Counted from the stretch's first letter, positions 1,357 through 63,936 are shown. The stretch: DNA of 64,000 nucleotides from Phapecoctavirus DIJ07P2 (OZ035771.1), one strand, 5' to 3'. Numbers and translations: made by a program. Notes: generated by a model from the letters alone, not told the origin.

Positions 1357-1412
1357 TATTTTAACTTTTTTCATTTTTAGAACAAAGGTGTCACTTTGTA
1401 GCACAGAAATAA

Positions 1413-1447
1413 GGCTCCTACAGCACCGTAGAGAGCCTATTATTTTG
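1413..1447 (+). terminator. rho-independent terminator after NADAR gene
   Basis: nested hairpin GGCTC-CTAC..GTAG-GAGCC followed by T-rich tract. Confidence 0.5.
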
Positions 1448-1598
1448 TCCTATACAAACCCTTGTCTTTTTCAGTTTGCATCACTAGGATTCGATCTGAG
1501 TGGGTTCCTGAAGGTCTGCCAATAAGATTAAAGGTTATCTCAAATTCCCACTACCTATTATCTCAAAAATCCCTCAAATTATTTAAACTTTTTAAGAA

Positions 1599-1784
1599 TT
1601 TACAAAAGTGAAAGTTGAAAACCAAAATTTAAAGTTTAGGAAAATTATCTTAAAATGTCAGATACAAAACAAAACTCAAAAGTCAAGGAAAATTTTAAAA
1701 ATTTTGCGCGCCCACAGTATTTAAAGTTTTTTTGCTTTTACAAAAATGAAAGTACAAAAGCAAAATTTAAAGTTTACAAAAATT
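1599..1784. repeat. two ~47-bp AT-rich direct repeats
   Basis: TTACAAAAGTGAAAGTTGAAAACCAAAATTTAAAGTTTAGGAAAATT (1599-1646) vs TTACAAAAATGAAAGTACAAAAGCAAAATTTAAAGTTTACAAAAATT (1737-1784). Confidence 0.55.
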
Positions 1785-1796
1785 TATGCAGATGGG

Positions 1797-1899
1797 AATG
1801 AGAAGAGTTCTCATATGGAAATGCAAATGATAATGATTCGCATTTAGGTTTATAAATGAGATTGATTCTTATTTGATAAGGTAAATGATAATCATTCTC
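1797..1899. promoter_or_regulatory. Fur-box-like operator cluster (two 19-mers plus a palindrome)
   Basis: GCAAATGATAATGATTCGC (1823-1841) and GTAAATGATAATCATTCTC (1881-1899) match GATAATGATAATCATTATC at 14/19 and 16/19; palindrome ATGAGAAgagTTCTCAT at ~1797-1814. Confidence 0.4.
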
Positions 1900-2161
1900 A
1901 TTTAGAGAATGACGCGCAGGGGCGGTGTTTGTCTCGCGCTCCCGTGTCCCCTCGCCATGTAATAAGAATAACAGATCCAGCCAGGAAAGCAAGCGATTAT
2001 TTTATCTTTACATTTCTTTACAAATATATAGCGCCCAGCCTACCGGCGATCAACCTTCCAACCAGCGCCCTGGTATGTTAGCCCCGCCTTTACGCCGTGG
2101 GGGTGGCGCTTCCTCTTCTGTATGTAAAACAGTATAAGCCCGATCCCTGGGCTTGTCAAGA

Positions 2162-2428
2162 TTATTTTTTGTTTTCTTGCCAGGTTAGGACACCTAGCCA
2201 AAAATGAATATCACCTTTTCCCCAATGTGGTATATTGCTTTCTTTCCCACCTTCACGCGCCCAGGTAAAACCGCCCGTGTAACTTTGTAATTGATAACTA
2301 TCCTCGACCTTATAATCTGATAGGTTGAGAACTGTTTCAACCTTTAAGCCCGTTGCGCTTGCTACCTGGTGCACCGTGCCGCCTTGCCAGCCCAATGAGT
2401 GCATAAGGTGTAATGTAGTATTTGTCAT
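2162..2428 (-). CDS. hypothetical protein in GC-rich island
   Basis: 88-aa minus ORF with AAGGG RBS-like sequence; local GC content visibly higher than surroundings. Confidence 0.35.
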   Translation of the reverse strand: MTNTTLHLMHSLGWQGGTVHQVASATGLKVETVLNLSDYKVEDSYQLQSYTGGFTWAREGGKESNIPHWGKGDIHFWLGVLTWQENKK

Positions 2429-2537
2429 GGTGTCGCCCTTTCTTTGTTGTGCGCCCTGGTTGGCGCGGTAGAAAGATGATAGCCCTTTCCTTTATATATA
2501 GCAAGCAAAAAGAAAATAAAAAAGATTGAAAAAGTGA

Positions 2538-10199: not shown

Positions 10200-10568
10200 A
10201 TGAGCAAATCAGCAATTAAAGCACTTGAAAAAGCACAAGAAGTGATCGCAACGTCAACCACTGGCGCAAAGGTTAATCTCGTTTGTTATCTGACAGATGA
10301 AACTATCCGTAAAAATTGGCGTAATGCTGATTTACTGGCTTGCTTATTGATTAATAGTGTCGCTAATGCTTTCCAGTGTGAAACAGCCGAGAGCCTGGAG
10401 GAAAACTTGTTTGATAATATGGATCAAGCCATTGAAACCTATATACAATCAAACCTGGATAGCTGGAACAGTAAAACATGGCCCGACAATTTACGCGATA
10501 CAACTGATCAACTGATCCGCCTTGCCCTGATGGTTGAACGCGATAACGTTTACAACAGCACAAAGTAA
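10200..10568 (+). CDS. hypothetical protein (122 aa)
   Basis: track ORF. Confidence 0.6.
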   Translation: MSKSAIKALEKAQEVIATSTTGAKVNLVCYLTDETIRKNWRNADLLACLLINSVANAFQCETAESLEENLFDNMDQAIETYIQSNLDSWNSKTWPDNLRDTTDQLIRLALMVERDNVYNSTK

Positions 10569-10576
10569 GATTATAC

Positions 10577-10598
10577 AAGGGCGCACTAAGCGCCCTTT
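10577..10598 (+). terminator. terminator-like hairpin (conserved type, copy 2)
   Basis: AAGGGCGCACTAAGCGCCCTT; weak T-tract. Confidence 0.4.
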
Positions 10599-10632
10599 AA
10601 CGTAAAGAAATGTAAATAATGCGCTATCCCTA

Positions 10633-10668
10633 TTGACAGGGGATCGGCGTTATATTATATTTAACTTA
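10633..10668 (+). promoter_or_regulatory. sigma70-like promoter without hairpin
   Basis: TTGACA 10633, 17-nt spacer, TATATT. Confidence 0.45.
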
Positions 10669-10706
10669 CTGGCAGCAAACAACGAAACGAAACAAAGGAC
10701 AACATC

Positions 10707-11126
10707 ATGAACATTAAATCAAATAATCCAGCTTACTCCTTCGATAACGCTTTTTGTCACGGTAGCGCCGCCAAAGGCTTCGAAATCGATGGTAAATTGG
10801 TTATCGTGAACGTTGACGGGGAAGAGGTTGCAGTGTATCCGGTAAACGATGTTAAAAGCCGTTTACAATGCCGCATGGATGTTACCGCATATCAGCTTGA
10901 TCCGGTCCGTGTAGTTGCCCTGGTATTAGAGGAAGAGATCAAAGCAATGCATCACAGTAATAAGTTTATTGGTGACGCGCAGGATAATATGAACGTTTGC
11001 CGCCATAAAGTTAATGAAGCATTGAAAGAATGCGGTTTTAAGGATCTGATGATTAAACGTGATGAAAAATTCCGCTTTCGTAATGACCTGGCAAACCGGA
11101 TCTACTCAATCTATGAAGCTTTATAA
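10707..11126 (+). CDS. hypothetical protein (139 aa)
   Basis: track ORF. Confidence 0.6.
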   Translation: MNIKSNNPAYSFDNAFCHGSAAKGFEIDGKLVIVNVDGEEVAVYPVNDVKSRLQCRMDVTAYQLDPVRVVALVLEEEIKAMHHSNKFIGDAQDNMNVCRHKVNEALKECGFKDLMIKRDEKFRFRNDLANRIYSIYEAL

Positions 11127-11139
11127 TCGACAACAAAAC

Positions 11140-11169
11140 AAGGGGCGCACAAAGCGCCCTTTCTTTTTG
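11140..11169 (+). terminator. rho-independent terminator (conserved type, copy 3)
   Basis: AAGGGGCGCACAAAGCGCCCTT followed by TCTTTTTG. Confidence 0.6.
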
Positions 11170-11199
11170 CCCGAACAATGTTGATAGCTTTCGCCTATG

Positions 11200-11680
11200 A
11201 AAAACCGACACAGAACAAAACTGAATAAATCGCGGTATCGAGCTAATCAACCAGCAAACGAATAACCATACCTCCCAGGGTTACAGGCTGTTAGAGAGCC
11301 ATTTAGAGCGGTTAAAATCGATCAACAACCAACAACAAACCATCAAAAACACCCTTTTACCTCCTTTCTAGTGCAATGATAACCATTATCATCTACCCAT
11401 GATTATCTATGCAATATAAGCGCATAATTATAATGTTGATAATAGTTCGCAACAACTAACCAACAAACAACATAAAACAATAAGCAAACTAATCATAATC
11501 AAAGGAATAATAGCAAGATGATTGATAACGACAAACAATCGAACCATGATGAATACTAAGCAAGATAACGATAACACGACAAAACAACCAACTAACGAAC
11601 AATAACAAACGAAACCATTAAAATAATAACTATTAGCAAAATAGTGCCTGAATGAAATCATTACAAAACGAATCATTCAC
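11200..11680. repeat. A+C-rich, strand-asymmetric low-complexity tract
   Basis: plus strand dominated by CAA/ACA/AAC repeats with very few G; no credible ORF. Confidence 0.5.
11372..11390. promoter_or_regulatory. Fur-box-like 19-mer
   Basis: TGCAATGATAACCATTATC; 3' 15 nt match Fur consensus at 14/15. Confidence 0.35.
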
Positions 11681-11699
11681 AGAGTCATCATTAGCACGC

Positions 11700-12060
11700 T
11701 ATGCCGGACACATAGCGAGCTAATAATAAGCCAACTACACCCCAACAATCATAACCATCGGTGACGGTTATTTCTTGTTACTGCGTAGCTTGCAATAATT
11801 GCAAGCGTAATGACGCTTACACTTATTGCGCTGGCTTATTATTAGCATTATATGTAATTACCAAGATCATAACATTAGCGCAATAACAATAGTCATTGTA
11901 ATAATTACATGAGTTATCACTATCGTTCAGTGTGATCATCATTAGCACAGTGAATAATTGCACGTAGCAACATGAGCGAATAGCGACAGGTTGCATAGTG
12001 TGCACATAGTGTATAAACATACAAGAAAATAAAGGCTAATCTTTTGGGGGCGAATACTAT
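11700..12060. repeat. cluster of palindromes and inverted repeats
   Basis: GCTAATAATAAGCC (11718) / GGCTTATTATTAGC (11838); CTTGCAAT-A-ATTGCAAG; AGCGT-AATG-ACGCT; ACAAT-AGTC-ATTGT; ATAGTGT direct repeat. Confidence 0.5.
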
Positions 12061-12150
12061 CGCGTAGCGATATGTTGAGCACCTTCTCTTAAACGTAAAT
12101 AAAATCAGAAAATTCTTGATTTATTTTAGTTTTTATGTTAATAAACGTTT

Positions 12151-12169
12151 AAATAATAATCATTCTCAT
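12151..12169. promoter_or_regulatory. Fur-box-like 19-mer
   Basis: AAATAATAATCATTCTCAT, 14/19 to Fur consensus. Confidence 0.3.
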
Positions 12170-12328
12170 ATAAATAATAGTCTGCTTGTCATGAGCGGGA
12201 TTAGTTGACAATGTTCCGTCATATGATGAAGTTGCCAAGCCATTGATAAATAAGTGTTTGTGTGATTTATAATCAGGTGGCCCACCTTGTCGCTATGTTG
12301 GCATGAGCCTTGCATAAGTCATTGAATA

Positions 12329-12350
12329 CGAATGATAATTATTCTCATTC
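12329..12350. promoter_or_regulatory. Fur-box-like palindrome
   Basis: CGAATGATAATTATTCTCATTC, near-perfect palindrome, 14/19 to Fur consensus. Confidence 0.35.
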
Positions 12351-12690
12351 GCATGATATTTGGGAATTGTCGCTGCGTGGACCTGACGGCCCGAAAATTC
12401 GCGTTAAGCACTTCTTACGTATACGCCATGATTTTTGCCATATGATATTGATTCTATTAGATATTCTTGCCATTATTGCCATGAAACATGGTGTCCCGAA
12501 ATAATCTCTCCCCGTAGATATTTTGGGTTACTTTTTATACAAGAGTGGGGTGTCAAAAATAATCAGTATATATGGGATAATTGATAGGAATCCCCTATGA
12601 TAATTCGATTGTAATTCCCTAAGATTGATCGTATGATGTTGGTGATTGATGATTGCCATGAAAGATGGCTAACGATGAGAGGAGATTGTC

Positions 12691-13065
12691 ATGCAAGAGA
12701 GTAAAAATGTTCCGTTGAGTAGTGCAACATTGCTTCGCTTCTATAAAGCATGGATTGCCAACTATCCTGCAATGAATCGCACAACGAGTGGCTTATGTGG
12801 TTGTCTGGTAGATTATGTAAATGATTTTGTTGGTGAGACAACTAGAGAAGAAGATAGAAGATGGCGGGATAGTTTGTTGGACCGTTTGAAATATGAAATG
12901 AGGAAACAATTTACATGTGCAGGGCTGGACTATAATCTTCCGTTCAATGCAGATTGCATGGATTACCTTTCAGAGTGTATAAACTTGGCGTGTCATACCA
13001 ACACGTTACGTCTTCAGTGGGTGAAAGACAGAATTGAAGATGCAAATAATGCTTGCATTGAATAA
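12691..13065 (+). CDS. hypothetical protein, paralog family A
   Basis: motifs GLCGCL and LRLQWVKDRIEDA shared with 13796, 16543 and 17800 genes. Confidence 0.55.
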   Translation: MQESKNVPLSSATLLRFYKAWIANYPAMNRTTSGLCGCLVDYVNDFVGETTREEDRRWRDSLLDRLKYEMRKQFTCAGLDYNLPFNADCMDYLSECINLACHTNTLRLQWVKDRIEDANNACIE

Positions 13066-61423: not shown

Positions 61424-61498
61424 GGCCCTGTAGCTCAATGGGAGAGCTGTCGGCTCATAACCGATAGGTAGCTGGATCGAAACCAGCCAGGGCCACCA
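61424..61498 (+). tRNA. tRNA-Met (CAT) or Ile2
   Basis: acceptor GGCCCTG/CAGGGCC, anticodon loop CTCATAA, T-arm GCTGG-ATCGAAA-CCAGC, A73, CCA encoded. Confidence 0.75.
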
Positions 61499-61500
61499 AC

Positions 61501-61575
61501 GTCTTTATGGTGTAATGGATAGCACAGGAGTCTTCTAAACTCTTAGTCAAGGTTCGATTCCTTGTAAAGACACCA
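61501..61575 (+). tRNA. tRNA-Arg (TCT)
   Basis: acceptor GTCTTTA/TAAAGAC, anticodon loop CTTCTAA, T-loop TTCGATT. Confidence 0.75.
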
Positions 61576-61771
61576 GAACATTTTAACATGAATTAGCTCA
61601 AGTGATTTGAACCCACTACTGATCATGGTGGCAGAGAATGAGGCAAGTATGTCAGACATTATAAACAAAGGCCACGGTTATATTAGAAGACATAAATGCT
61701 CGAAGAGCACTGTTCGTGGAGAACGGGGGTTGGTGGAGTCACCATTCATGGTAAAATGTTTTAAAAAACTA

Positions 61772-61800
61772 TTGACAACAAGCATTATTTTATGTTAGAT
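61772..61800 (+). promoter_or_regulatory. sigma70-like promoter for downstream tRNAs
   Basis: TTGACA 61772, 17-nt spacer, TTAGAT. Confidence 0.45.
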
Positions 61801-61809
61801 TATAAGTAT

Positions 61810-61900
61810 GGAAGGGCAAATCGACGTGGCGACGAAAACGGTCTTGAAAACCGCCGAGCTTGAAAGAGCCTTGGGAGTTCGACTCTCCCTCCTTCCGCCA
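61810..61900 (+). tRNA. tRNA-Ser (TGA)
   Basis: anticodon arm CGGTCTTGAAAACCG identical to enterobacterial tRNA-Ser(UGA); long variable arm; T-arm GGGAG-TTCGACT-CTCCC. Confidence 0.75.
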
Positions 61901-61905
61901 GATTA

Positions 61906-61991
61906 GGTAGATTGGTGAAATGGTAGCCACGACAGTTTGCTAAACTGTAGTCGGAAACGGCGTGTAGGTTCGAGTCCTACATCTACCGCCA
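61906..61991 (+). tRNA. tRNA-Ser (GCT)
   Basis: acceptor GGTAGAT/ATCTACC, anticodon loop TTGCTAA, long variable arm. Confidence 0.7.
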
Positions 61992-62121
61992 AGTTCTTTT
62001 TAATGTAGCTTACTTTAGCAGAGTAAATCTTCGGCAAGTGGCGGTAACCACTTTACCGATAACTCATAGTTAGTGGTGTGAACACTGGCTATTTTAAAAA
62101 GAATTTAAATATTAGTATTTA

Positions 62122-62209
62122 GGTGAGTTAATTCCGTAGGGGTAGCGGGGCAGACTGTAAATCTGTTATCATTGCGATTCGGGTGGTTCGACTCCATCAC
62201 TCACCACCA
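62122..62209 (+). tRNA. tRNA-Tyr (GTA)
   Basis: acceptor GGTGAGT/ACTCACC, anticodon arm GCAGA-CTGTAAA-TCTGT, long variable arm, A73. Confidence 0.7.
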
Positions 62210-62215
62210 AATTAA

Positions 62216-62301
62216 GATGAGTTGGCTGAATGGTTTAAGCGGCGGACTGTTAATCCGTGTTCGAAAGAACAATATAGGTTCGAATCCTATACTCATCGCC
62301 A
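62216..62301 (+). tRNA. type-II tRNA with Asn anticodon GTT
   Basis: acceptor GATGAGT/ACTCATC, anticodon arm GCGGA-CTGTTAA-TCCGT, 15-nt variable region, G73. Confidence 0.55.
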
Positions 62302-62308
62302 GAATTAT

Positions 62309-62385
62309 GGACTTGTAGAGTTAAGGTAAACCCCCAGTCGCCAATAGGCTTCTGGAATTGCAGGTATCGAATCCTGCCGAGTCCC
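62309..62385 (+). ncRNA. tRNA-like element without canonical anticodon arm
   Basis: acceptor-like GGACTTG/CGAGTCC and T-arm GCAGG-TATCGAAT-CCTGC, but no 5-7-5 anticodon stem-loop and no encoded CCA. Confidence 0.3.
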
Positions 62386-62391
62386 AGCATT

Positions 62392-62466
62392 GCTCCTATA
62401 GTATAATGGCTATTACAACGGTTTTGTAATCCGTGGATCTCTGTTCGATTCAGTGTGGGAGCACCA
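62392..62466 (+). tRNA. tRNA-Thr (TGT)
   Basis: acceptor GCTCCTA/TGGGAGC, anticodon loop TTTGTAA, T-loop TTCGATT, A73. Confidence 0.7.
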
Positions 62467-62741
62467 ACACAACATTAAGAGCACTGTGATTGATCGTCGT
62501 ATCCTGTGCACAAGGTCTGCTCGAAAGACAGTGTTCTTAGTATTGTGTTGATCACAAAAAGAGTCACCCGAAACTTGACCGGAGTAGGGTTGGATGGGGC
62601 AAAATGAGAAGCGGCTCTCCCATCGACAGCAACGAAGAATAATATTTGACTTTGGTTTTGTATTATTTTAAGTTAGCTTACCGAACGTAGGGCTAGTCAC
62701 CCAAAGGGATACTCGTCACTGTCCCACCTATTAAATAACTA

Positions 62742-62771
62742 TTGACATTCGATAGTAAAATGTAGTATAGT
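62742..62771 (+). promoter_or_regulatory. sigma70-like promoter for downstream tRNAs
   Basis: TTGACA 62742, 18-nt spacer, TATAGT. Confidence 0.45.
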
Positions 62772-62788
62772 AAATATATATATACAAA

Positions 62789-62865
62789 GCGTTATTAGTG
62801 TTAGCGGTTCAGCATCCCGTCCTTCCAAGTCGGTGGCATCGGTTCGAATCCGATATAACGCTCCA
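62789..62865 (+). tRNA. tRNA-Gly (TCC)
   Basis: acceptor GCGTTAT/ATAACGC, anticodon loop CTTCCAA, T-arm ATCGG-TTCGAAT-CCGAT, U73. Confidence 0.7.
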
Positions 62866-62963
62866 AATTATTTAATAAAGGGTTGCCAGAAAACTTTCTC
62901 TTTTACTAATGGTTTTCTCTTTCTCTCACACCTCTTCTGGTTGCCCTTCATTAAATGATTTAT

Positions 62964-63039
62964 TGGTTTGTAGTGTAGTCCGGTAGCACACGACACTTTG
63001 ACTGTCGTAGGTTTGGTTCAAATCCAGACAGACCAGCCA
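62964..63039 (+). tRNA. tRNA-Gln (TTG)
   Basis: anticodon arm CGACA-CTTTGAC-TGTCG, T-loop TTCAAAT, G73. Confidence 0.7.
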
Positions 63040-63083
63040 TATAACAAAGGTGAGTCACTACCTTAAGTGCGAAGTTAAAATAT

Positions 63084-63160
63084 ACAGCCTTTAGCTCAAC
63101 CTGGTAGAGTGCATCGTTTGGGGCGATGAAGTTAAAAGTTCGAATCTTTTAAGGCTGACC
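63084..63160 (+). tRNA. tRNA-Pro (TGG)
   Basis: C1:G72 acceptor CAGCCTT/AAGGCTG, anticodon arm CATCG-TTTGGGG-CGATG, T-loop TTCGAAT, A73. Confidence 0.75.
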
Positions 63161-63235
63161 AAATTACAATTCCATGCGTCTGACAAAAGGTTAGTCGGTA
63201 TAAGACGTGGGATTTAATACTTATAAGGAGGACTT

Positions 63236-63577
63236 ATGTATAAATGTAGCCATTGTGGTGAAGAAGATCCGCAAAAGTTCTACGGTCATAAGAAATCTAT
63301 TTGTGGTTATTGTCATAATAAGTATACAATAGACTTAGGACAACAGAAAAAGAAGTATGCTCGTGATAAGTTAGGTGGTAAGTGTGTTTCCTGCGGTTAC
63401 GATAAATATCAGGAAGCTTTAGATATACACCATCTTGATCCGACAATAAAAGACCGGAGTTTCGCATCCATGCGTGGGTGGTCGCTTAAGAGGATTGATA
63501 AAGAGATAGAGAACTGCATCTTACTATGTAAGAACTGTCATTCAGCTTTCCATTCTGGTCATGATATTACTTGGTAG
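63236..63577 (+). CDS. HNH endonuclease within tRNA cluster
   Basis: CSHCG...CGYCH...DIHHLDP...CKNCH; AAGGAGG RBS. Confidence 0.75.
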   Translation: MYKCSHCGEEDPQKFYGHKKSICGYCHNKYTIDLGQQKKKYARDKLGGKCVSCGYDKYQEALDIHHLDPTIKDRSFASMRGWSLKRIDKEIENCILLCKNCHSAFHSGHDITW

Positions 63578-63591
63578 TAATACTAATTAAA

Positions 63592-63665
63592 TGTTTCGTA
63601 GTTCAATGGTAGAACCCACGACTGATAATCGTGAGACACAAGTTCGATTCTTGTCGAAACAACCA
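63592..63665 (+). tRNA. tRNA-Ile (GAT)
   Basis: acceptor TGTTTCG/CGAAACA, anticodon arm CACGA-CTGATAA-TCGTG, T-loop TTCGATT, A73. Confidence 0.7.
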
Positions 63666-63667
63666 GT

Positions 63668-63737
63668 TTCCCGTTAGACTTACAGGATAAGAGATCCACA
63701 ATTTATTGTGACGCTGGTTCGAATCCAGCACGGGATA
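63668..63737 (+). ncRNA. tRNA-like element with degenerate anticodon arm
   Basis: T-arm GCTGG-TTCGAAT-CCAGC and acceptor-like TTCCCGT/ACGGGAT (1-72 mismatch), middle forms CACAA-ttta-TTGTG instead of an anticodon arm. Confidence 0.3.
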
Positions 63738-63742
63738 CATAA

Positions 63743-63821
63743 TAGCGGGATAGAGGAGTCTGGTCGTCCTCGCCAGTTTCATATGCTGGAGATCATTGGT
63801 TCAAATCCAATTCCCGCCTCC
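63743..63821 (+). tRNA. tRNA with CAT anticodon (second Met/Ile2-type)
   Basis: anticodon arm CCAGT-TTCATAT-GCTGG, T-arm ATTGG-TTCAAAT-CCAAT, A1-C72 mismatch, U73. Confidence 0.6.
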
Positions 63822-63936
63822 AAATATCGCTTGCCAGCGGTATCTTTGAAGACCTTGCCTGGTTCCTTCTAAGATGGAGGGGTGCGACTCCTTAACGCAC
63901 AATCATAATAAAACATTTCAAATTAACAGTATTTAT

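What the first reader, a model, noticed from the sequence alone, without database searches (positions are those of the whole stretch)
11200..11680. About 480-bp tract with extreme strand asymmetry (A+C-rich, G-poor plus strand)
The plus strand reads as runs of CAA/ACA/AAC (for example CAACAACCAACAACAAACCATCAAAAACACCC and CGCAACAACTAACCAACAAACAACATAAAAC) with very few G or T. The only ORF here (11428-11676, minus) is a hydrophobic artefact of this composition. Asymmetry of this strength is not expected from neutral drift. If transcribed, the RNA would be unstructured and rich in ACA and A-R-N triplets, so it could act as a decoy for ACA-specific endoribonucleases or an Hfq-type sponge; alternatively it could be a DNA-level element such as an unwinding region.
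Basis: partly seen in the sequence, partly recalled or inferred. Interest (0 to 1): 0.55.

Follow-up and report, generated by a model that had tools for sequence, protein, structure and literature searches.

The report
Unfoldable spacer near phage genome end
The A+C-rich tract is real and conserved: it is a gene-free, easily melted stretch of DNA that cannot fold on itself, about 0.4 kb before the right terminal repeat of a phAPEC8-like coliphage genome, and it more likely helps open the DNA for replication or packaging than acts as an RNA decoy.

Summary
11200-11680 is the most A+C-rich 481-nt stretch of the 64 kb (0.676, z 5.3).

The window is a Phapecoctavirus (phAPEC8-like) genome. The tract lies in a 1.56-kb gene-free gap that holds the genome ends; the direct terminal repeat maps to 12078-12406.

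The finding covers three things:
- a motif block of conserved length (to 11372);
- two Fur-box-like sites around a palindrome (11372-11450);
- the true asymmetric spacer (11445-11684; A 0.52, G 0.11).

In related genera the spacer sequence is not alignable or only about 70% identical, and its length varies. G depletion on the plus strand is kept everywhere (G 0.04-0.11). Against phiWec188 the spacer diverges at the synonymous-site rate. It has low GC, and neither strand can fold on itself.

The minus ORF is not conserved. I found no promoter above chance, no tandem repeats, no RNA family, and no ACA or A-R-N excess beyond composition.

Just downstream are clustered ATTAGC motifs and a 165-nt folded element with 14 compensatory base pairs.

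Best reading (confidence 0.4): a DNA-level unwinding or single-strand platform in a terminal replication/packaging region. The nearest analogue is the T7 SRL tract. The RNA-decoy reading is not supported.

The parts
11140..11162 (+). Intrinsic terminator closing the last right-arm gene (ORF 10707-11126)
   Evidence: Terminator scan. Annotated as a terminator in phAPEC8 and Schickermooser. Stem invariant in 9 genomes.
11163..11372 (.). Conserved motif block (GATAGC..CTATG; TGAATAAATCGCGGTATCGAGCTAATCAA; TTAGAGCGGTTAAAATCGAT). From just before the terminator stem to Fur-like box 1 is 233-236 nt in every genus.
   Evidence: Alignment. Length invariance. No conserved RNA fold. 94.6% identity to phiWec188 over 11135-11300, against 86.4% at synonymous sites. 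Part of it is conserved in Avunavirus Av-05.
11372..11392 (.). Fur-box-like site 1 (TGCAATGATAACCATTATC, 15/19 to the E. coli Fur consensus)
   Evidence: Conserved in all aligned genera.
11403..11450 (.). Conserved TTATCTATGCAATATAAGCGCATAA palindrome and a weaker Fur-like site 2 (11423-11450)
   Evidence: 92.3% identity to phiWec188 over 11373-11450.
11445..11684 (.). Core asymmetric spacer: A 0.52, C 0.20, G 0.11, T 0.17. Low GC, non-self-pairing on both strands, length 220-400 nt in relatives, sequence evolving at the synonymous rate.
11428..11676 (-). 82-aa ORF; not a gene
   Evidence: Truncated or absent in relatives. No family match.
11685..11850 (-). About 165-nt folded single-strand element: hairpin, 15-bp long-range stem, two inner hairpins, 9-1-9 palindrome. 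The minus strand folds better.
   Evidence: 48 pairs, 14 of them with compensatory changes; 98.2% of cells paired; 0 of 500 shuffles reach the observed values. No Rfam match.
11632..12040 (.). Cluster of seven ATTAGC/GCTAAT motifs, several of which form helix arms of the folded element
   Evidence: 8 of the window's 35 copies lie in 11242-12040. Also seen in relatives.
12078..12406 (.). Equivalent of the direct terminal repeat (single copy in this window). The left physical end is at GTTG^AGC. Fur-like sites at 12149-12167 and 12328-12352.
   Evidence: The two ends of the Schickermooser record share 329 bp that map here. Korf et al. 2019 report 328 bp (PMC6563267). The phi92 DTR is annotated in its record and maps collinearly. 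Many records start at 12078. Fur-like sites.

Best explanation
The tract is the spacer of a conserved non-coding control region just inside the right end of the linear phage genome. Its right edge is 393 bp from the right terminal repeat and about 0.7 kb from the physical end. I propose that it acts as DNA, not RNA. It is an easily melted segment in which G is kept off the plus strand and C off the minus strand. In Phapecoctavirus T is also kept off the plus strand. Once the duplex is opened, neither strand can fold back on itself. That would make it a persistent single-strand platform, or unwinding element, next to the ATTAGC motifs and the strand-specific folded element. It would serve either initiation of replication at the genome end or the end-processing and packaging reaction at the concatemer junction. 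Shown here: its position relative to the terminal repeat; conservation of G depletion with sequence change at the synonymous rate and variable length; low GC; lack of self-folding on both strands in all lineages; absence of a gene, promoter, tandem repeat or RNA fold. Inferred: that the segment actually opens in vivo, and which process uses it.
For: Position: the gap 11127-12690 holds the genome ends. Conservation of composition but not sequence: G is 0.04-0.11 in 15 relatives from at least four lineages, and length is 220-400 nt. BLAST does not align the spacer between Phapecoctavirus and Justusliebigvirus, and it is only about 70% identical to the Klebsiella and Citrobacter phages. Against phiWec188 it is 85.3% identical, compared with 86.4% at third codon positions of the neighbouring gene; the flanking modules are 90-95% identical. 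Physical properties: GC is in the lowest 1.7% of 240-nt windows. The ssDNA folding energy is -9.5 (plus) and -9.9 (minus) kcal/mol per 241 nt, against a genome mean of about -21 (sd 4.7-4.9), and only 1 of 256 sampled windows is weaker on each strand. In seven relatives it is -6 to -15 against locus backgrounds mostly -18 to -25. Neighbours: an ATTAGC cluster, a covariation-supported folded element that favours the minus strand, and a sign flip of GC skew in the non-coding DNA near 11850-12078 in both the window and phi92. No transcription-unit signals: promoter-like hits are at chance level (11 found, 10.2 expected); there is no conserved leftward promoter; the terminator is one-way in phi92 (read from the sequence). 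Analogue: T7 nt 161-380, just inside the left terminal repeat, is A+C 0.65-0.72, G 0.10-0.12, and folds at only -2.8/-4.2 kcal/mol.
Against: There is no experimental evidence of unwinding, replication start or packaging function in any relative. The only literature note I found is an unexplained 'non-coding' box on the rV5 map (PMC3606486). There are no DnaA boxes and no IHF cluster. A-tracts show no helical phasing in five of the six tracts tested; one, L027, exceeded the shuffle 95% bound at 10.5 bp. A second region, 1550-1905, has the lowest GC of the window, 72-nt direct repeats and four phased Fur-like boxes, and looks at least as origin-like. Lack of self-folding follows automatically from removing one base, so it may be a by-product and not the selected trait. 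The same composition would also give an unstructured RNA. Phage-specific middle or late promoters cannot be recognised with these tools. The function of the T7 SRL tract is itself unknown, and the left ends of SP6 and N4 have no such tract.
Confidence: 0.4

Rival explanations
1. The tract is part of a long untranslated leftward (minus-sense) transcript. Its 5' domain is the folded element at 11850-11685. The C-poor, U/G-rich body would let RNA polymerase cross about 0.5 kb of untranslated RNA without Rho-dependent termination.
For: The folded element is clearly better on the minus strand: RNA MFE -76.4 (z -9.1) against -56.5 (z -5.7). One-sided changes AU<->GU and UG<->CG keep pairing only on the minus strand. 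YC dimers, which Rho binds, are scarce on the minus-sense RNA of the tract: 1.1 per 100 nt in phi92 and 3.2-5.0 in four other lineages, against 9-10.6 genome-wide. The tract's minus strand has the same skew signs (G>C, T>A) as coding strands in this genome, only stronger.
Against: There is no conserved leftward promoter within 420 nt to the right of the element in nine genomes. In the window the minus-strand YC density is only mildly low (7.5 per 100 nt). In phi92 the terminator hairpin is not followed by a T-rich tail on the minus strand, so such a transcript would have no conserved end. The helices are almost purely Watson-Crick, with few G-U pairs, which is unusual for an RNA.
Confidence: 0.2
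2. The tract is functionless filler. Its asymmetry comes from a local strand-biased mutation process, such as cytosine deamination of the minus strand while it is single-stranded during end processing or replication. Nothing in it is under selection.
For: The sequence diverges at the synonymous-site rate and the length is free to vary. C loss with T gain on the minus strand is the signature of deamination (compositions). Among 16 polarised substitutions in the tract, G>A (5 from about 26 G sites) exceeds C>T (4 from about 45 C sites) per site.
Against: The substitution counts are far too small to be significant. Third codon positions of the gene 320 nt away show no comparable bias, so the process would have to stop sharply at the gap. 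In Phapecoctavirus T is also depleted on the plus strand, which deamination alone does not explain. A gap of this size persists in genomes that are otherwise tightly packed.
Confidence: 0.2
3. The tract is a Rho loading zone on plus-strand RNA. It would stop transcripts that read through the 11140 terminator before they reach the hairpins and the terminal repeat.
For: It lies directly downstream of the last right-arm terminator and is untranslated. C exceeds G in all lineages (C/G 1.7-3.7). It is structure-free as RNA and is followed by strong hairpins that could pause the polymerase.
Against: C is not enriched (0.14-0.24 against 0.20). YC dimers on the plus strand are rare in the window (5.0 per 100 nt, 3rd percentile) and not enriched in relatives (6.8-14.5 against 10.6). 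The RNA is 60% purine in Phapecoctavirus.
Confidence: 0.08
4. One reading: a transcribed, unstructured, ACA- and A-R-N-rich RNA that acts as a decoy for ACA-specific endoribonucleases or as an Hfq sponge.
For: In the window, ACA density is 5.8 per 100 nt against 2.0 genome-wide. The plus-strand RNA would be unstructured. Fur-like boxes upstream could in principle regulate a promoter, and a perfect TATAAT lies at 11430-11435.
Against: ACA is not above what composition predicts (14 observed, 12.7 +/- 3.0 expected). It drops to 1.7-2.5 per 100 nt in phi92-like and other relatives. A-R-N runs reach at most 5 triplets and are not conserved. There is no -35 element, and the -10 is not conserved outside Phapecoctavirus. 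There is no terminator after the tract.
Confidence: 0.05
5. The asymmetry reflects a real or recently decayed membrane-protein gene on the minus strand.
For: An 82-aa hydrophobic ORF is present.
Against: The ORF is cut to 45 aa in relatives about 96-99% identical over this stretch, has a different frame in phiWec188, and is absent in four other lineages. It has no Pfam or PHROG match. It is not annotated in the curated records.
Confidence: 0.02

Closest known systems
Phage T7 'SRL' region (nt about 160-380), just inside the left terminal repeat (Dunn and Studier 1983, from my own knowledge; sequence checked here)
   Same: It is non-coding DNA next to a short direct terminal repeat. One strand is A+C-rich and G-poor (A+C 0.65-0.72, G 0.10-0.12). 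It is almost unable to self-fold as ssDNA (-2.8/-4.2 kcal/mol per 220 nt, against -17 to -28 nearby).
   Different: The T7 tract is an array of CCTAAAG-type heptamers; Tandem Repeats Finder and the repeat search of the window found no repeat array in the spacer here. T7's tract abuts the repeat on the left end; this one is 393 bp from the repeat on the right end, with a hairpin and motif array in between. Its polarity relative to the nearest end is the opposite. No sequence homology. The function of the T7 tract is itself not established.
DNA unwinding elements of phage and plasmid origins, that is AT-rich regions next to iterons or promoters (lambda ori, T4 oriF/oriG, T7 primary origin; own knowledge)
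   Same: Low duplex stability, a position next to clustered short repeats, a compositional rather than sequence constraint, and variable length.
   Different: There are no DnaA boxes, no 13-mers, no recognised promoter and no known initiator. At 240-400 nt it is several times longer than classical unwinding elements. No initiation has been mapped in any relative.
T7/T3 packaging signals pacB/pacC at the concatemer junction (PMC9860248, citing Chung and Hinkle 1990 and Fujisawa and Morita 1997)
   Same: Non-coding sequences flanking a short terminal repeat, needed for recognition and cutting of concatemers. Hairpin-forming sequence lies to the left of the junction.
   Different: The terminase recognition sites of Stephanstirmvirinae are unknown. 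Nothing here shows that the tract is bound or required.
Rho utilisation (rut) sites
   Same: Defined by composition (C>G, unstructured, untranslated) and not by sequence.
   Different: C is not enriched and YC dimers are scarce in the window.
The 'non-coding' box on the rV5 genome map (Kropinski et al. 2013, PMC3606486)
   Same: A large ORF-free region in the related Vequintavirinae. The Avunavirus Av-05 gap shares the terminator, motif block, two Fur-like boxes and a short CAACAA run.
   Different: It was only noted in a figure legend, with no analysis or function. I did not check homology to rV5 itself.

Membership tests
T7-type terminal-repeat-adjacent repeat array (SRL/SRR) | Lies directly next to the direct terminal repeat | tested here: inconclusive
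   It lies in the same non-coding terminal region, but 393 bp from the repeat (DTR 12078-12406).
T7-type terminal-repeat-adjacent repeat array (SRL/SRR) | Array of a short repeated unit (CCTAAAG in T7) | tested here: not met
   Tandem Repeats Finder finds nothing in 11445-11684 or in the phi92 tract. Only low-complexity matches with 128-nt spacing were found.
T7-type terminal-repeat-adjacent repeat array (SRL/SRR) | A+C-rich, G-poor strand with minimal self-complementarity | tested here: met
Origin DNA unwinding element | Low duplex stability relative to the genome | tested here: met
   GC 0.28-0.31, lowest 1.7% of 240-nt windows. GC is 0.21-0.24 in phi92-like and Klebsiella relatives, but 0.35 in L027 and L029.
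Origin DNA unwinding element | Adjacent initiator binding sites (iterons, DnaA boxes) | tested here: inconclusive
   ATTAGC motifs cluster about 18-fold (my calculation), but what binds them is unknown. There is no DnaA box and no IHF cluster.
Origin DNA unwinding element | Replication starts here | not testable with these tools
   Needs 2D gels, marker-frequency analysis or nascent-strand mapping.
Rho utilisation site | C-rich, G-poor RNA with dense YC dimers | tested here: not met
   C/G is 1.7 but C is only 0.20. YC is 5.0 per 100 nt, 3rd percentile of the window.
Rho utilisation site | Unstructured, untranslated RNA | tested here: met
   -14.4 kcal/mol per 241 nt. No conserved ORF. Whether it is transcribed cannot be tested here.
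   Only chance-level sigma-70 matches. Phage-specific promoters cannot be recognised here.
Protein-coding gene (ORF 11428-11676, minus) | Reading frame conserved in relatives | tested here: not met
Any Rfam RNA family | Covariance-model match | tested here: not met
   Nothing but tRNAs at gathering score in the window. Only sub-threshold snoRNA-type noise in 11100-12700.
Fur box (sites at 11372, 12149, 12328 and others) | Match to the 19-bp consensus GATAATGATAATCATTATC (own knowledge) | tested here: met
   14-16 of 19 in the window, clustered at 11372-12334 and 1823-1887. A 16/16 core match in the phi92 DTR. The palindrome centre of the phage box is shifted 3 nt from the Fur centre (my reading of the sequences).
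Fur box (sites at 11372, 12149, 12328 and others) | Bound by Fur | not testable with these tools
   Needs EMSA or ChIP, and infection of a fur mutant.

The most novel reading that the evidence does not exclude
Stephanstirmvirinae, and at least one Vequintavirinae genus, share an undescribed terminal module built in a fixed order: terminator, a motif block of conserved length, Fur-like operator boxes, a one-base-depleted spacer that cannot fold once melted, a 165-nt element that folds as a single strand, clustered ATTAGC motifs, and the cut site of the terminal repeat. In this reading the spacer is the obligatory single-strand landing zone where replication, or terminal-repeat duplication and packaging, is started. 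Host Fur, or a phage protein with a Fur-like site, would act as an architectural or regulatory factor.
Probability: 0.25. Interest if true: 0.7.

Novelty: new variant of a known kind. Interest (0 to 1): 0.5.

Why it matters
How large myoviruses with short direct terminal repeats start replication and cut or duplicate their ends is known in detail only for T7-like podoviruses.

This 1.5-kb gene-free region is conserved across a subfamily widely used in phage therapy collections, yet it is unannotated in every record I inspected.

The work here gives a concrete, ordered map of candidate cis elements. It also gives a simple testable idea for the odd composition: remove one base from each strand and opened DNA stays open.

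If true, it would give a handle for engineering these phages (packaging signals, transducing particles, safe insertion sites). It would also explain a compositional signature shared with the T7 SRL tract, whose function has stayed unknown since 1983.

If the asymmetry is only mutational, it still reports that one particular strand of this segment spends unusual time single-stranded.

Tried and rejected
**Interpretations tested and rejected or not supported**
- Protein-coding reading of the minus ORF. Rejected: not conserved, and no family match.
- A small conserved plus-strand ORF in the motif block. The frame differs between the window and phi92 (read from the sequences).
- Known RNA family. 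None found.
- Conserved RNA fold in the block 11135-11372. None beyond the terminator.
- Tandem or micro-satellite origin of the tract. None. The CAAC..AAC matches at 128-nt spacing are low-complexity matches and are absent outside Phapecoctavirus.
- Intrinsic curvature. No 10.5-bp A-tract phasing in five of the six tracts tested; L027 exceeded the shuffle 95% bound.
- Host-type origin signals. No DnaA box, no IHF cluster, no Chi site.
- Rut site. YC dimers are scarce.
- R-loop origin driven by a leftward transcript. Set aside on thermodynamic grounds from my own knowledge (rU:dA hybrids are the weakest); not computed.
- Regional replication-type skew. GC3 and AT3 skews follow gene orientation and show no switch at the gap.
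- Host origin of the sequence. No match in 5,426 E. coli genomes.
- A general property of terminal-repeat phages. Absent at the left ends of SP6 and N4. The phiKMV left end is A-poor but folds well. Right ends were not checked.

**Attempts that were underpowered or found little**
- Polarised substitution spectrum. Only 16 events in the tract.
- Promoter search on both strands across nine genomes. Nothing conserved.
- Literature. No transcriptome, origin or packaging study of this region.
- IMG/VR and metagenome scans added only a few extra relatives.

Full report

Yes. The two quoted runs are at 11322-11353 and 11449-11479. Over 11200-11680 the plus strand is A 0.457, C 0.218, G 0.121, T 0.204. 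Its A+C fraction of 0.676 is the highest of all 481-nt windows in the 64 kb (mean 0.510, sd 0.031, z 5.3). The next best separate window reaches only 0.599. The local GC skew goes down to -0.46 and the AT skew up to +0.47.

**2. Where are we?**

The window is a Phapecoctavirus genome (phAPEC8-like, Stephanstirmvirinae). Several E. coli phage records cover 10700-12700 at about 96-97% identity, and one (Ro121lw) is identical over 11130-11800.

The tract lies in a 1.56-kb gap with no annotated gene. The gap runs from the last right-arm ORF (10707-11126) and its terminator (11140-11162) to the next plus-strand ORF at 12691. A gap of this kind is present in every relative inspected:
- Justusliebigvirus phi92, arall and cardinal;
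- Klebsiella phages phi1_175008 and FBKp34;
- Citrobacter phage Tr1;
- the Vequintavirinae member Av-05.

The gap contains the physical genome ends. The phi92 record annotates 343-bp direct terminal repeats. The first and last 329 bp of the Schickermooser record are identical and map to window 12078-12406. Korf et al. report a 328-bp repeat for that phage (PMC6563267). Many records begin exactly at window 12078. In phi92 and in Schickermooser the left end falls at the homologous GTTG^AGC.

So in the virion DNA the finding lies 0.4-0.9 kb to the left of the right terminal repeat.

**3. Anatomy**

A ten-genome alignment shows that the 480 nt are composite.

- (a) 11163-11372 is a block of conserved motifs. 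From just before the terminator stem to the first Fur-like box is 233-236 nt in 13 distinct sequences, from Phapecoctavirus to Av-05. It has no conserved RNA fold.
- (b) 11372-11450 holds two sites that resemble the E. coli Fur box (15/19 and 13/19 matches) around a conserved ATGCA..TGCAT-type palindrome.
- (c) 11445-11684 is the truly asymmetric spacer: A 0.52, C 0.20, G 0.11, T 0.17, A+C 0.72.
- (d) Directly after it comes a folded element (11685-11850), within a cluster of ATTAGC motifs (11632-12040). The terminal repeat follows.

**4. What is conserved in the spacer?**

Not the sequence. BLAST does not align it between Phapecoctavirus and Justusliebigvirus, and it is only about 70% identical to the Klebsiella and Citrobacter phages. 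Its length ranges from about 220 to 400 nt.

Against phiWec188 the spacer is 85.3% identical. Third codon positions of the adjacent gene are 86.4% identical. The flanking modules are 90-95% identical. The sequence therefore changes at about the neutral rate.

What is kept everywhere is G depletion on the plus strand: G 0.04-0.11 against 0.18 genome-wide, with C/G of 1.7-3.7. T depletion, and hence strong A+C richness, is specific to Phapecoctavirus. In phi92, T is 0.36-0.38.

An asymmetry that survives near-complete turnover of the sequence is not drift. It needs either selection on composition or a local strand-biased mutation process.

**5. Physical consequences**

- The spacer is in the lowest 1.7% of the window for GC.
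- As RNA, the plus strand folds at only -14.4 kcal/mol for 241 nt (z -0.3). The minus strand folds at -32.5 (z +0.8).
- As single-stranded DNA, both strands are nearly structure-free: -9.5 and -9.9 kcal/mol, against a genome mean of about -21 (sd 4.7-4.9). Only one of 256 sampled windows is weaker on each strand.
- The same holds in seven relatives: -6 to -15 against locus backgrounds mostly -18 to -25.

Removing G from one strand removes C from the other, so G:C pairs cannot form within either strand.

**6.

- The 82-aa minus ORF is cut to 45 aa in phAPEC8, EP57 and two metagenomic relatives that are about 96-99% identical over this stretch. It is replaced by a different short ORF in phiWec188 and is absent in the other lineages. 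It matches no Pfam or PHROG family.
- ACA is frequent in the window (5.8 per 100 nt against 2.0), but no more than composition predicts (14 observed, 12.7 +/- 3.0 expected). It is at background level in phi92-like and other relatives (1.7-2.5). A-R-N runs are short and not conserved.
- Sigma-70-like hits in 10500-13000 number 11 against 10.2 expected by chance. None beside the tract is strong, whereas real early promoters of this phage are near-consensus, for example TTGACA-17-TATATT at 10633.
- No conserved leftward promoter lies to the right of the folded element in nine genomes.
- There is no Rfam match.

The RNA decoy or sponge reading therefore has no support beyond composition.

**7. Other readings tested**

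- *Rho loading site on plus-strand RNA.* C exceeds G, but C is not enriched. YC dimers are rare in the window (5.0 per 100 nt, 3rd percentile).
- *Tandem-repeat array as in T7.* None found.
- *Curved DNA.* No helical phasing in five of six tracts tested; one, L027, exceeded the shuffle 95% bound.
- *Host-type origin signals.* No DnaA box, IHF cluster or Chi site.
- *Regional replication skew.* Third-position skews follow gene orientation and do not switch at the gap.
- *Host-derived sequence.* No match in E. coli genomes.
- *Mutation spectrum.* The 16 polarised changes (G>A 5, C>T 4, A>G 1, T>C 0) are too few to decide.

**8. The neighbour**

The 165 nt after the spacer form a hairpin, a 15-bp long-range stem, two inner hairpins and a 9-1-9 palindrome.

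- On a 13-sequence alignment of the minus strand, 48 pairs are predicted and 14 of them show compensatory double changes. 98.2% of cells are paired. None of 500 shuffles reaches the observed values, and sliding the partners drops pairing to 27-50%.
- The minus strand folds better than the plus strand: as RNA -76.4 against -56.5 kcal/mol, as DNA -45.7 against -36.9.
- The few one-sided changes preserve pairing only on the minus strand.
- The helices are almost purely Watson-Crick: 648 of 663 cells.

This fits a folded DNA strand at least as well as an RNA.

ATTAGC, which forms several helix arms, occurs 8 times in 11242-12040 out of 35 in the whole window. The GC skew of the non-coding DNA flips from negative to positive near 11850-12078, in both the window and phi92.

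**9. Best explanation**

Taken together, the tract is best read as a DNA-level component of a conserved terminal control region. It would be an easily melted spacer that stays single-stranded once opened, placed between a protein-binding-like block and a strand-specific folded element with clustered motifs, just before the terminal repeat.

Whether the process served is initiation of replication at the genome end, or processing and packaging of the concatemer junction, cannot be decided here. I give this reading 0.4.

The main rivals are:
- a leftward untranslated transcript whose C-poor body escapes Rho (0.2);
- neutral filler shaped by deamination of a frequently single-stranded minus strand (0.2). 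This rival shares with the best reading the idea that the minus strand is exposed.

**10. Comparison with what is known**

The closest analogue is the T7 SRL tract. Nucleotides 161-380, just inside the left terminal repeat, are A+C 0.65-0.72 and G 0.10-0.12, and fold at only -2.8/-4.2 kcal/mol as ssDNA.

It differs in three ways. It is a heptamer array, it abuts the repeat, and it has the opposite polarity relative to its end. Its function is also unknown.

T7 packaging signals flank the repeat (PMC9860248). The left ends of SP6 and N4 lack such a tract, so this is not a general feature of terminal-repeat phages.

In the rV5 paper the corresponding kind of region is only labelled 'non-coding' on the map (PMC3606486). 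I found no study of this region in Stephanstirmvirinae.

**11. Verdict**

This is a real compositional feature, conserved across the relatives examined.

It is a new variant of a known kind: non-coding cis regions next to phage terminal repeats, or origin-type unwinding segments. Interest is moderate. The function is unproven, but the feature is clean, conserved and directly testable. Its surroundings hold a well-supported, undescribed folded element and Fur-like boxes.

Noticed in passing
window 11685-11850 (minus strand favoured): An undescribed folded element of about 165 nt directly after the tract. 48 pairs, 14 with compensatory changes, 98.2% of cells paired across 13 diverse sequences. 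The minus strand folds at -76.4 kcal/mol (z -9.1). Pairing is almost purely Watson-Crick. No Rfam match. A third half-site (GCTTACACTTATTGC, about 11822-11836) could pair with the palindrome in place of its usual partner.
   Followed up: yes
window 11372-11392, 11423-11450, 12149-12167, 12328-12352; phi92 L006 about 2733, 2789, 3669, 3853: Fur-box-like sites (14-17 of 19 matches to GATAATGATAATCATTATC), conserved across genera. Two flank a palindrome inside the finding. Two sit 55-75 bp inside each boundary of the terminal repeat. In the 64 kb they cluster only here and at 1823-1887. Whether Fur or a phage protein binds them is unknown.
   Followed up: partly
window 12078-12406: Single-copy equivalent of the 329-bp direct terminal repeat. 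The left end falls at the conserved GTTG^AGC, preceded by a small GC palindrome (ATCGCGTAGCGAT, 12060-12072). The assembly in this window is circularly permuted relative to the virion DNA.
   Followed up: partly
window 11632-12040: Seven ATTAGC/GCTAAT motifs in 410 bp, about 18-fold more than expected (my calculation). Relatives carry the same motif. Av-05 carries TTATTGTGTC repeats in its place, plus a 15-bp long-range stem (L013 3416/3478).
   Followed up: partly
window 11135-11372: The block from the terminator to the first Fur-like box keeps a length of 233-236 nt from Phapecoctavirus to Avunavirus Av-05. It has several invariant motifs, no conserved RNA fold and no conserved ORF.
   Followed up: partly
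window 1360-2500: A second long stretch of about 1.1 kb that is probably non-coding (short ORFs of 45-88 aa are listed mechanically; homologues not checked). It has the lowest GC of the window (0.233 at 1550), two 72-nt direct repeats (1575-1646 and 1713-1784), 29-nt repeats, and four Fur-like boxes spaced 29 nt apart (1797-1905). It is a candidate origin or control region.
   Followed up: partly
window 2574, 4101, 4742, 6206, 7062, 7495, 8246, 9473 (plus strand): A 20-nt motif GTAGGGCGGCAATGGTGCCG occurs eight times in the right-arm early region. In the one phAPEC8 case inspected it sits directly after a sigma-70-like promoter. The phAPEC8 record annotates it as a 'PHIRE promoter'. It looks more like a 5' leader hairpin.
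   Followed up: no
window 12431-12655: Short tandem repeats between the terminal repeat and the first left-arm gene: a 24-nt unit x2.1 and a 16-nt unit x2.8. A sigma-70-like promoter lies at 12476-12505.
   Followed up: no
window 11850 onward, compared with phiWec188 (L007): Identity to phiWec188 drops from about 90% left of 11850 to 64-74% over the terminal repeat and beyond, and to 56% in the next ORF. This suggests a recombination boundary at the genome end.
   Followed up: no
window 61424-63822: A cluster of 10-11 tRNA genes on the plus strand.
   Followed up: no
L032 (phiKMV 1-800): The left terminal repeat of phiKMV and the next about 400 nt are strongly A-poor on the top strand (A 0.06-0.10). 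This is another one-base-depleted genome end, although it folds well.
   Followed up: no
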